Virus record (IMG/VR): IMGVR_UViG_3300049793_000365
Source of the DNA: an uncultured virus (IMG/VR IMGVR_UViG_3300049793_000365)
Taxonomy: Duplodnaviria; Heunggongvirae; Uroviricota; Caudoviricetes
Length of the DNA stretch: 64,000 nucleotides
Reading direction: 5' to 3' (one strand)
The DNA itself: not shown here
Below: the continuation of a report on this DNA, generated by a model with database tools

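What the first reader, a model, noticed from the sequence alone, without database searches (positions are those of the whole stretch)
1363..63564. The two tags are mutually exclusive and each tracks a promoter class
Seen: none of the 27 N-tagged proteins carries the C-terminal RDxK tag. C-tagged genes mostly lie in units headed by host-type -33/-7 promoters or the AACT-N15-16-ATATA motif, and none is the first gene after TAATATATA. The two classes are finely interleaved, often as back-to-back promoters (8113/8133, 41705/41744, 47232/47279, and 54519/54531 overlapping). Inference: each accessory gene carries a timing code (promoter) and a matching address code (peptide tag), late/head versus early/unknown destination. 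This would let new cargo domains be plugged into either route.
Basis: partly seen in the sequence, partly recalled or inferred. Interest (0 to 1): 0.85.

Follow-up and report, generated by a model that had tools for sequence, protein, structure and literature searches.

The report, continued
Best explanation
The window comes from a contig of about 712 kb from a huge phage with T4-like head genes. Its host reads Bacteroidota-type -33/-7 promoters.

Timing. The accessory genes are transcribed from three promoter classes, most of which end only 4-7 nt before the first start codon:
- host-type sites (early, read by unmodified host RNA polymerase);
- an AACT-N15/16-TATAAT-like class (possibly middle);
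- a -10-only TTAATATATA class (late, probably read through a gp55-like phage sigma factor).

The N-tag. Proteins meant for the virion interior carry a 10-residue N-terminal peptide, M-K-[HY]-[LI]-K-x-[FY]-[EN]-x-[FY]. I read it as the counterpart of T4's capsid targeting sequence. It would bind the scaffolding core of the prohead through the hydrophobic residues at positions 4 and 7. It is probably removed by the head protease near the Glu at position 8 or 9. The acidic, non-membrane cargo would then be packed with the DNA and injected into the next cell. This works only if the protein is made while proheads assemble, so these genes sit only behind late promoters.

The C-tag. About a third of the proteins in the early and AACT-type units instead end in a peptide of about 13 residues, (K-x-x-hydrophobic)-R-[DEN]-x-[KQ]-[IL]-[ND]-x-[LI]-[LIV], followed in three quarters of cases by 0-2 polar residues. 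I read it as a short amphipathic C-terminal recognition peptide. It would tie many unrelated small early proteins to one common partner, either a docking hub or a protease. The partner is unknown.

Shown versus inferred. Shown: the motifs, their exclusivity, the promoter association, and the late character of TAATATATA in relatives. Inferred: head packaging, cleavage, and any binding by the C-tag.
For: Motifs and exclusivity.

Selection at the protein level. The invariant Arg of the C-tag uses AGA 24, CGT 10, CGC 8, CGA 6 and AGG 6, close to genome-wide usage. Leu4 of the N-tag uses 5 codons.

Unrelated bodies. Only 7 paralog pairs turn up among the 154 proteins of the first self-trained gene set. 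Three of the 58 N-tagged G003 proteins scanned have a Pfam hit at E<=0.001, in unrelated families: GNAT, NUDIX and AAA_33 kinase.

Promoter association in the window.

Promoter association in G003 (matrices trained on the window):
- N-tagged: 55 L, 0 H, 7 unassigned.
- C-tagged: 20 L, 48 H, 63 unassigned (P=2e-23).

AATATATA within 40 nt upstream of the start:
- G003: N 33 of 62, C 2 of 131, other 89 of 545.
- G004: N 21 of 41, C 1 of 72, other 131 of 855.

Double-tagged genes: G003 has 1 weak case against 11.1 expected (P=4e-5). G004 has 0 against 3.05 expected (P=0.04).

TAATATATA is late.
- It lies 31-36 nt before the gp23-like capsid gene in G003 and G004.
- It lies 20-25 nt before the portal, protease-scaffold and head-closure genes in G003, which also encodes a gp55-like sigma factor.
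- Of 75 untagged G003 genes directly behind L, 8 are head, connector, tail or lysis genes. None of the 38 directly behind H is.

Host-type class. It matches the published TTTG/TANNTTTG consensus, with a 4-5 nt gap between the -7 element and the transcript start (passages of PMC6847099).

Resemblance to T4.
- IPII and IPIII start MKTYQEFIAE, and IPI starts MKTFKEFTST.
- A review states that 10 residues suffice, that targeting rests on residues 4 and 7, and that processing rests on residues 8 and 10 (passages of PMC9026906).
- The N-tag's information content ends at residue 10 and peaks at residues 2, 3, 4 and 7.
- Glu is at position 8 or 9 in 92 of 125 N-tags, against 247 of 1,739 other proteins.

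N-tagged bodies are more acidic than untagged proteins in all three genomes (P=1e-3, 1e-4, 5e-8). Only 1 of 125 has a membrane-like segment.

The C-tag sits within 0-2 residues of the C-terminus in 140 of 185 cases.
Against: - There is no protein, expression or virion data for this phage or any tagged relative. The only run that holds the DNA is the likely source metagenome.
- The window's own head genes were not seen. T4-like head genes are shown only in relatives whose proteins are distant from the window's.
- The N-tag lacks T4's Leu/Ile-x-Glu cleavage pattern.
- The G003 protease-scaffold reaches only E=0.0013 against Peptidase_S77, below Pfam's cut-off. The genome search with that family found nothing and the control did not ring either.
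- 7 of 25 L units in the window start with untagged genes, and many late genes in G003 are untagged. The tag is therefore not required for late expression.
- Three C-tagged genes have L as their nearest scored promoter.
- Nothing found here identifies a partner for the C-tag.
- 63 of 131 C-tagged G003 genes had no assigned promoter. In G004 the H matrix found only 9 sites, so 'early' is not shown for the C-tag in G004.
Confidence: 0.55

Rival explanations
1. The C-tag is a degradation signal, not a docking handle. A host or phage protease would recognise the C-terminal peptide and clear the early proteins when the programme moves on. In this reading the tag itself would be the timer.
For: - The motif sits 0-2 residues from the free C-terminus in 140 of 185 cases and ends in hydrophobic residues. 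This is similar in kind to C-terminal degrons, as I recall them.
- It occurs almost only on genes outside late units.
- G003 encodes three M28-like peptidases, two of them directly behind host-type promoters.
Against: - The last residues after the motif are polar and vary in number from 0 to 7.
- Internal copies exist.
- No protease with a C-terminal recognition domain was identified.
- M28 enzymes are exopeptidases, not degron-dependent unfoldases (recalled).
- Nothing here measures stability.
Confidence: 0.2
2. The tags are not addresses. They are the only surviving conserved ends of two large, fast-diverging paralogous gene families that spread by duplication together with their promoters. 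Exclusivity and promoter association would then reflect common descent.
For: - The late promoter and the N-tag are physically adjacent, 4-7 nt apart, so they could be copied as one cassette.
- A few paralog pairs exist within each class.
- Several C-tagged proteins share an N-terminal Cys-Ile pattern, which I saw by eye.
Against: - Eight N-tagged genes are second or third in their unit and have no promoter of their own.
- The few N-tagged bodies with a Pfam hit (3 of 58 scanned in G003) belong to unrelated families: GNAT, NUDIX, AAA_33.
- Conservation stops sharply at residue 10 for the N-tag and about 4 residues before the Arg for the C-tag.
- Codons are fully randomised.
- Homologous bodies occur with and without a tag: 16 N/none and 11 C/none pairs.
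- Even under this reading, purifying selection on the ends needs a function.
Confidence: 0.12
3. The N-tag is a translation feature of leaderless late mRNAs, either a favourable start context or a nascent-peptide effect, and not a targeting peptide.
For: - In the window the late sites end 4-7 nt before the ATG in 24 of 25 cases. The first genes are therefore probably leaderless.
- Positions 2-5 are rich in AAA/AAG and TTA codons.
Against: - N-tagged genes without a promoter of their own, inside units, keep the tag.
- In G004 the late motif lies 9-40 nt upstream for 18 of the 21 promoter-proximal N-tagged genes, and the tag is kept.
- Untagged genes sit at the same 4-5 nt distance behind L and behind H sites.
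- Phe7 and the aromatic residue at position 10 are conserved with free codon choice.
Confidence: 0.08
4. The C-tag is a sliding-clamp (PIP-box-like) binding peptide that brings early proteins to replicating phage DNA.
For: - The hydrophobic spacing [IL]-x-x-[LI]-[LIVF] near the C-terminus resembles the h-x-x-a-a part of PIP boxes, as I recall them.
- In G004 the last motif residue is often Phe.
- T4's clamp binds C-terminal tails of several proteins (recalled).
Against: - The G003 proteins expected to bind a clamp do not end in the motif. The DNA polymerase fragment, gp55-like sigma, clamp loader, helicases and ligase score between -18 and -0.6.
- There is no Gln at the expected position.
- A third of all early proteins competing for one clamp seems unlikely.
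Confidence: 0.04
5. The motifs are DNA- or RNA-level signals, such as recombination sites, terminators or coupling elements, that merely happen to lie in coding sequence.
For: C-tagged genes are often followed within 10 nt by the next gene (41 of 54, against 42 of 77 untagged). They also use TGA stops more often.
Against: - Codon choice at every conserved residue follows genome-wide usage, including five Arg codons from two codon boxes.
- 8 C-tagged genes have no downstream gene on their strand.
- The motif is position-locked to the protein's end, not to the next start.
Confidence: 0.01

Closest known systems
Capsid targeting sequence (CTS) of phage T4 internal proteins IPI, IPII, IPIII
   Same: - Both are 10-residue peptides at the very N-terminus, starting M-K.
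- Both have hydrophobic or aromatic residues at positions 4 and 7. T4 has MKTYQEFIAE and MKTFKEFTST; here the consensus is MK[HY][LI]Kx[FY][EN]x[FY].
- Both sit on otherwise unrelated small proteins.
- In both, the phage lineage has a gp23-like capsid, a portal and a head protease.
- Review text: residues 4 and 7 target, residues 8 and 10 direct processing.
   Different: - Scale: 27 in 64 kb here, 62 in G003 and 41 in G004, against a handful in T4.
- There is no Leu/Ile-x-Glu cleavage pattern.
- The bodies are acidic.
- In the window the tagged genes have their own promoter 4-7 nt from the ATG. The T4 ip genes have ordinary leaders with an AGGA ribosome site.
- Packaging and cleavage were not shown here.
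T4-type temporal promoter classes (host-sigma early, activator-dependent middle, gp55 late TATAAATA)
   Same: - Three sequence classes are present.
- The late class is a -10-only A/T octamer with no conserved upstream element.
- A gp55-like sigma factor is present in a relative.
- The early class equals the host consensus.
   Different: - The host consensus is the Bacteroidota -33/-7 type.
- The late octamer is AATATATA, not TATAAATA (the T4 octamer is recalled).
- Most sites abut the start codon, implying leaderless first genes. In Flavobacterium johnsoniae, 87% of predicted transcripts have leaders over 10 nt.
- The middle class is only weakly supported.
C-terminal targeting peptides of encapsulin cargo and C-terminal capsid-binding helices of phage and herpesvirus scaffolding proteins (recalled, not tested)
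   Same: A short C-terminal peptide on otherwise unrelated proteins that docks onto one partner.
   Different: Those peptides act during shell assembly. The C-tag sits on genes behind host-type (early) promoters and is almost absent from late units. There is no sequence likeness that I know of.
C-terminal degrons and adaptor tails of bacterial AAA+ proteases (ssrA tag, MuA C-terminus, SspB tail; recalled)
   Same: They lie at or near the free C-terminus, mix basic and hydrophobic residues, and are transferable in principle.
   Different: The consensus is different. The C-tag has a variable polar tail of 0-7 residues after the motif. No protease partner was found.
Poxvirus ankyrin proteins with a C-terminal PRANC/F-box-like motif (recalled; an analogy only)
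   Same: Many different binder bodies in one large virus share one C-terminal motif that connects them to a single host machine.
   Different: That is a eukaryotic ubiquitin system with a domain of about 30-40 residues. Here the peptide is 13 residues long in a phage, and no partner is known.
Promoter-early stem-loop (PeSL) cassettes between ORFan genes of T4-type phages (recalled)
   Same: Small ORFan genes in plastic regions, each unit carrying its own conserved early promoter.
   Different: A GC-containing inverted repeat in the promoter spacer is present in only 5 of 24 sites. The PeSL description, as I recall it, involves no peptide tags.

Membership tests
T4-type capsid targeting sequence | Peptide of about 10 residues at the extreme N-terminus, sufficient on its own | tested here: met
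   Information content falls to background after residue 10 in 84 N-tags. Sufficiency itself is not testable here.
T4-type capsid targeting sequence | Targeting determinants at residues 4 and 7 (hydrophobic or aromatic) | tested here: met
   Position 4 is L 76% and I 22%. Position 7 is F 79% and Y 17%. T4 has Y/F at 4 and F at 7. Review passage.
T4-type capsid targeting sequence | Removal by the prohead protease after Glu in a Leu/Ile-x-Glu context | tested here: inconclusive
   Glu is at position 8 or 9 in 92 of 125 N-tags. But the residue two positions before it is Lys/x or Phe, not Leu/Ile. Cleavage itself is not testable here.
T4-type capsid targeting sequence | Phage has a T4-type prohead (gp23-like capsid, gp20-like portal, gp21-like protease/scaffold core) | tested here: inconclusive
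   Met in relatives G003 and G004. The Peptidase_S77 match is only E=0.0013. The window itself holds no head genes and the rest of its contig was not available.
T4-type capsid targeting sequence | Late expression, concurrent with prohead assembly | tested here: met
   By promoter class only. All 22 scored N-tag genes lie in TAATATATA units. This motif precedes the capsid gene in two relatives, and the portal and protease genes in G003. There are no expression data.
T4-type capsid targeting sequence | Protein found inside the mature head | not testable with these tools
   There is no cultured tagged relative. Tenacibaculum phage PTm1 has 0 matches to the N-tag coding pattern.
Bacteroidota sigma-A (-33/-7) promoter | TTTG near -33 and TANNTTTG at -7, with no G at the two N positions | tested here: met
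   24 sites at 17 bits or more, against a shuffle maximum of 16.4. Among the 24 scored sites the -7 boxes are mostly TATATTTG/A or TACATTTG, with five variants (TATATTAG, TAATTTTA, TATTTTTA twice, TAAATTAG), and none has G at the two N positions. Published consensus: passages of PMC6847099.
T4-type late promoter (gp55-dependent) | A/T-rich -10 octamer alone, no -35 element, in front of morphogenesis genes, with a gp55-like sigma encoded by the phage | tested here: met
   No conserved positions upstream of TTAATATATA. The motif lies in front of the capsid gene in two relatives, and the portal, protease and head-closure genes in G003. phrog_234 late sigma matches at E=1e-7 and Sigma70_r2 at E=0.003, weak, in G003. 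The octamer differs from T4's. No sigma gene was seen in the window.
C-terminal protease degron (ssrA-like) | Recognition residues are the last residues of the chain and are non-polar | tested here: not met
   The motif is followed by 1 or more mostly polar residues in 155 of 185 cases.
PIP-box / clamp-binding C-terminal peptide | Present on the replicative polymerase and other clamp clients of the same phage | tested here: not met
   C-termini of the G003 polymerase fragment, gp55-like sigma, clamp loader, helicases and ligase score -18 to -0.6 with the C-tag matrix.

The most novel reading that the evidence does not exclude
Huge T4-related phages run a proteome-wide addressing system. A 10-residue N-terminal signal loads dozens of different acidic effector proteins, including enzymes such as acetyltransferase, NUDIX hydrolase and kinase, into each head for injection. 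A separate 13-residue C-terminal handle wires a third of the early ORFan proteins to one single hub. The variable bodies could then act as interchangeable binders that bring host targets to that hub, for example a protease. This would be a phage counterpart of viral adaptor families that hijack one degradation machine. Reading the two tags would sort hundreds of 'dark' phage proteins by destination.
Probability: 0.25. Interest if true: 0.9.

Novelty: new variant of a known kind. Interest (0 to 1): 0.72.

Why it matters
Huge phages are made mostly of genes with no known relatives. In this window only 11 of 150 scanned proteins had any Pfam match at E<=0.001. Two short peptides that can be read straight from sequence, together with three promoter classes, would assign about half of these genes to a time (early or late). 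They would also assign them to a route: packed into the head and injected, or tied to a common early partner.

If the N-tag works like T4's targeting sequence, these phages inject dozens of different proteins per infection, far beyond T4. The tag would also be a ready handle for loading foreign proteins into such capsids.

The C-tag defines a large and, as far as my searches show, undescribed class of early phage proteins. Finding its partner would point to a central node of host takeover in Bacteroidota-infecting phages. The N-tag coding pattern is also present in published huge-phage genomes (49 matches in LR745206, 27 in LR756504), so the claim can be checked widely.

Tried and rejected
- Whole genome of the window: none is held. 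An exact 43-nt stretch of the window was not found in IMG/VR.
- Close relatives by single proteins in IMG/VR: none. Megablast against phage records: no match.
- Earlier scan notes: none. One search failed because it had too many words.
- Pfam on 150 window proteins: no family covers either tag.
- Pfam on 131 C-tagged G003 proteins at E<=1e-4: only 3 have any hit (Terminase_6N, weak; DUF6011; Ribosomal_L12 C-terminal domain), and none lies at the tail.
- Complex prediction of the G003 protease-scaffold with an N-tag alignment: no verdict, score 0.00.
- AlphaFold2 on single sequences of one C-tagged and one N-tagged protein: mean pLDDT 48 and 37, too poor to use.
- ESM Atlas search with a C-terminal part: best feature score 0.79. 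The structure rows only say the tail is helical in a low-confidence model.
- Sequencing runs: no RNA holder listed; the only holder is the probable source DNA run.
- The search for homologous proteins on one C-tagged protein: it found only itself.
- Search of G003 and G004 with Peptidase_S77: nothing found, and the control did not ring, so it is uninformative.
- DNA-level explanation of the tags: rejected from codon usage.
- Clamp-binding idea: not supported.
- Translational-coupling idea for the C-tag: 8 of 54 have no downstream gene on their strand.
- A PeSL-like hairpin in the host-type promoter spacer: an inverted repeat of 4 bp or more in 14 of 24 sites, but only 5 contain G or C, so it is not a consistent feature.
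- Nearest-promoter table for G004: uninformative. AATATATA occurs 462 times in that 26% GC genome, and the window-trained H matrix finds only 9 sites. I replaced it with the 'within 40 nt' test.
- Literature: five searches found no description of these tags or of TAATATATA as a phage promoter. I judged this from the result listings and abstract starts only. The searches were: CTS with phage internal proteins; jumbo phage with conserved C-terminal motif; TAATATATA with phage; CTS with huge phages, Mahaphage or Lak; shared C-terminal or short linear motif with early proteins.

Full report
**What the window is.** The 64-kb window is 31-33% G+C and is packed with small genes on both strands. In a Pfam scan of 150 proteins at E<=0.001, 11 had any match. 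The clear ones are a cysteinyl-tRNA synthetase, an RNA ligase, a dCMP deaminase, a GGACT-family protein, a fragment of a Dam-type methylase, a lipoyl/biotinyl domain and a deoxyribosyltransferase-like protein. There is one tRNA-Met gene. No whole genome is held for the window. A look-up of one of its proteins shows that the source contig is 711,805 bp long. The only sequencing run that holds the DNA is a soil metagenome, probably the source. The nearest phage records for the one large ORF are uncultured huge phages of 635-642 kb, at about 25% identity.

**Gene set.** I trained a codon model on the window's long ORFs and resolved overlaps. Where a promoter site lay just upstream of an in-frame start, I took that start. 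This gave 158 genes. The set is my own and has not been checked by an independent gene finder.

**The two tags are real.**
- N-tag. A position matrix over residues 2-11 separates 22 genes (5 bits or more; 19 at 13.8 or more) from all 369 internal methionines, whose maximum is 3.5. Five more genes carry versions with a one-residue shift or degenerate positions (I picked them by eye and hand-coded them).
- C-tag. A 9-residue matrix finds 54 genes among 1,422 C-terminal windows, against 4 hits among 15,728 internal positions. The score distribution is bimodal.
- Logos from the window plus G003 (84 N-tags, 185 C-tags) show sharp edges. The N-tag is exactly 10 residues: M-K-[HY]-[LI]-K-x-[FY]-[EN]-x-[FY]. 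The C-tag is about 13 residues, with weak K, Q/E, E and hydrophobic preferences in the four positions before an almost invariant Arg. It continues [DEN]-x-[KQ]-[IL]-[ND]-x-[LI]-[LIV], followed by 0-2 mostly polar residues in 140 of 185 cases.

**They are protein-level signals on unrelated bodies.** The invariant Arg of the C-tag is encoded by AGA 24, CGT 10, CGC 8, CGA 6 and AGG 6, close to genome-wide usage. Leu and Ile positions use all common codons. The N-tag's Lys2 is AAA 10 and AAG 10, and Leu4 uses five codons. This rules out a DNA or RNA element. An all-against-all BLASTP of the 154 proteins of the first self-trained gene set gives only 7 related pairs. In G003, 3 of the 58 N-tagged proteins scanned have a Pfam hit at E<=0.001: a GNAT acetyltransferase, a NUDIX hydrolase and an AAA_33 kinase. 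These are unrelated folds.

**Mutual exclusion.** No gene in the window has both tags, against 9.2 expected (P=3.2e-6). In G003 there is 1 of 738, a weak N-tag call with no late promoter, against 11.1 expected (P=4e-5). In G004 there are 0 of 968, against 3.05 expected (P=0.04).

**Promoter classes.**
- Late type. AATATATA is not over-represented in the window: 23 copies, against 27.7 in order-2 shuffles. But 21 of the 23 have an ATG 4-7 nt downstream, against 2.2 in shuffles (maximum 5). The consensus is tTTAATATATA[G/C], with nothing conserved further upstream.
- Host type. A two-block matrix for TTTG ... ATTATCCGTATATTTG gives 24 sites at 17 bits or more, while 10 shuffles never exceed 16.4. 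The elements match the published Bacteroidota -33/-7 consensus TTTG/TANNTTTG. In Flavobacterium johnsoniae, transcripts start 4-5 nt after the -7 element (passages of PMC6847099). Here 18 of 23 such sites end 4-6 nt before the start codon, so the first genes would be leaderless or nearly so.
- AACT type. However, 10 of the 28 end within 40 nt of a called start, where about 1.5 are expected. About eight of them look like real sites.

**The association in the window.** Nearest upstream promoter on the same strand within the run of co-oriented genes:

| Tag | L | H | M | unassigned |
|---|---|---|---|---|
| N (22) | 22 | 0 | 0 | 0 |
| N variants (5) | 4 | 0 | 1 | 0 |
| C (54) | 3 | 35 | 9 | 7 |
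| untagged (77) | 13 | 36 | 19 | 9 |

- Fisher test for N versus C by L versus non-L gives P=8e-17.
- Genes within one unit are not independent, so I also counted units. 19 of 25 L units hold an N-tag, against 1 of 41 other units (P=2e-10). 2 of 25 L units hold a C-tag, against 21 of 41 other units (P=4e-4).
- No C-tagged gene is the first gene after an L site.
- The three C-tagged genes with L as their nearest scored promoter are 16500, 17275 and 42289. Each is separated from that site by intergenic gaps holding AACT-like sequences that my regular expression did not accept.
- Eight N-tagged genes are second or third in their unit and have no promoter of their own. The tag is therefore not a by-product of the adjacent promoter.

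**Relatives.** A scan of IMG/VR for the composite 'TAATATATA, 4-6 nt, ATG AAR CAY YTN AAR NNN TTY GA' returned 47 loci in A/T-rich contigs of up to 640 kb. These loci also hold C-tag-like protein ends. Two records carry a gp23-like major capsid gene: G003 (508 kb, 97% complete) and G004 (640 kb, terminal repeats). I fetched both whole. The G003 capsid protein is 65% identical to those of the published huge phages LR745206 and LR756502. It is about 30% identical to Lak phages and 27% to Tenacibaculum phage PTm1. The N-tag coding pattern matches as follows, with 0 for the reversed control in every case:

| Record | Matches |
|---|---|
| LR745206 | 49 |
| LR756504 | 27 |
| LR756500 | 11 |
| Lak-A1 | 2 |
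| LR756501 | 0 |
| PTm1 | 0 |

**TAATATATA is a late promoter.**
- In G003 and G004 it lies 31-36 nt upstream of the capsid gene.
- In G003 the portal, a 757-residue head protease-scaffold, the capsid gene and a head-closure gene all have it 20-31 nt upstream. A gp55-like late sigma factor lies in the same cluster. The Pfam matches are weak: Peptidase_S77 at E=0.0013 and Sigma70_r2 at E=0.003.
- Of 75 untagged G003 genes directly behind the motif, 8 are head, connector, tail-fibre-assembly or lysis genes. None of the 38 directly behind a host-type site is. Those 38 include NAD-dependent DNA ligase, RNA ligase, NAMPT and tRNA-synthetase-like genes.

**The association at genome scale.**
- G003, with matrices trained only on the window: 738 genes, 62 N-tagged and 131 C-tagged. 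Nearest promoter for N is 55 L, 0 H, 7 unassigned. For C it is 20 L, 48 H, 63 unassigned (P=2e-23).
- A stricter test, independent of unit assignment, asks whether AATATATA lies within 40 nt upstream of the start:

| Genome | N-tagged | C-tagged | other | N vs C |
|---|---|---|---|---|
| G003 | 33 of 62 | 2 of 131 | 89 of 545 | P=1e-17 |
| G004 | 21 of 41 | 1 of 72 | 131 of 855 | P=1e-10 |

- In both genomes C-tagged genes are depleted relative to untagged ones (P=3e-7 and 3e-4).
- In G004 the window-trained host-type matrix finds only 9 sites, so 'early' cannot be shown for the C-tag there.
- Late promoters also drive 217 untagged genes in G003. So the N-tag implies a late promoter, but a late promoter does not imply the N-tag.

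**What the N-tag most likely is.**
- T4's internal proteins start MKTYQEFIAE (IPII, IPIII) and MKTFKEFTST (IPI), as read from the T4 record.
- According to a review, the first 10 residues of IPIII suffice for incorporation into the head. Targeting depends mainly on residues 4 and 7, and processing on residues 8 and 10. Related phages carry other proteins with similar N-termini (passages of PMC9026906, section 2.6 and 3.1; also PMC3012670).
- The N-tag has the same length and the same M-K start. It has hydrophobic residues at positions 4 (L/I 98%) and 7 (F/Y 96%), and Glu at position 8 or 9 in 92 of 125 cases.
- It occurs in a lineage with a T4-type capsid, portal and protease, and only behind late promoters.
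- Its bodies are markedly acidic in all three genomes. Median net charge is -4 to -6 per 100 residues, against 0 to -1.7 for untagged proteins (P=1e-3, 1e-4, 5e-8). Almost none has a membrane-like segment (1 of 125).
- I therefore read it as a capsid targeting signal, greatly expanded in number (about 0.65). It does not show T4's Leu/Ile-x-Glu cleavage pattern. Nothing here shows packaging.

**What the C-tag might be.**
- It marks 34% of the window's genes, 18% of G003's and 7% of G004's. In G004 the second position is mostly Lys and the last is often Phe.
- The proteins are small (median 102 residues) and almost never match Pfam.
- The motif's hydrophobic spacing fits one face of a short helix. 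Its tight distance to the free C-terminus suggests a partner that reads C-terminal peptides.
- I considered four readings: a docking handle for a common hub, a degron, a clamp-binding peptide and a coupling element. The clamp idea fails on the C-termini of the expected clamp clients in G003. The coupling idea fails on the 8 tagged genes with no downstream neighbour. The first two remain open, and the partner is unknown.
- Internal copies (28092-28514 has two; 28515-28898 and 12313-12657 have tag-like peptides near the N-terminus) look like remnants of gene fusions.

**Modularity.** I found 556 homologous pairs across the window, G003 and G004 (alignment of 45 residues or more, E<1e-6). By tag state they divide as follows:

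| Pair type | Count |
|---|---|
| untagged / untagged | 514 |
| N / N | 7 |
| C / C | 8 |
| N / none | 16 |
| C / none | 11 |
| N / C | 0 |

Many of the 'none' partners have degenerate tags. One pair changes tag and promoter class together. G003 gene 487562 (MKHLKTFEGY, late unit) aligns from its residue 10 to residue 3 of the untagged window gene 54116-54514, which sits directly behind a host-type promoter. The N-tag can therefore be gained or lost as a 10-residue module.

**Limits.**
- All timing is inferred from promoter sequence. All 'address' functions are inferred by analogy.
- Gene calls, start choices and transcription units are mine. Terminators were not used.
- The H matrix was trained on the window, and the M class was defined after seeing the data.
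- The structure and complex predictions gave nothing usable.
- Five literature searches found no description of either tag. I saw only listings and abstract starts for those, and passages of three papers. Supplements were not consulted.

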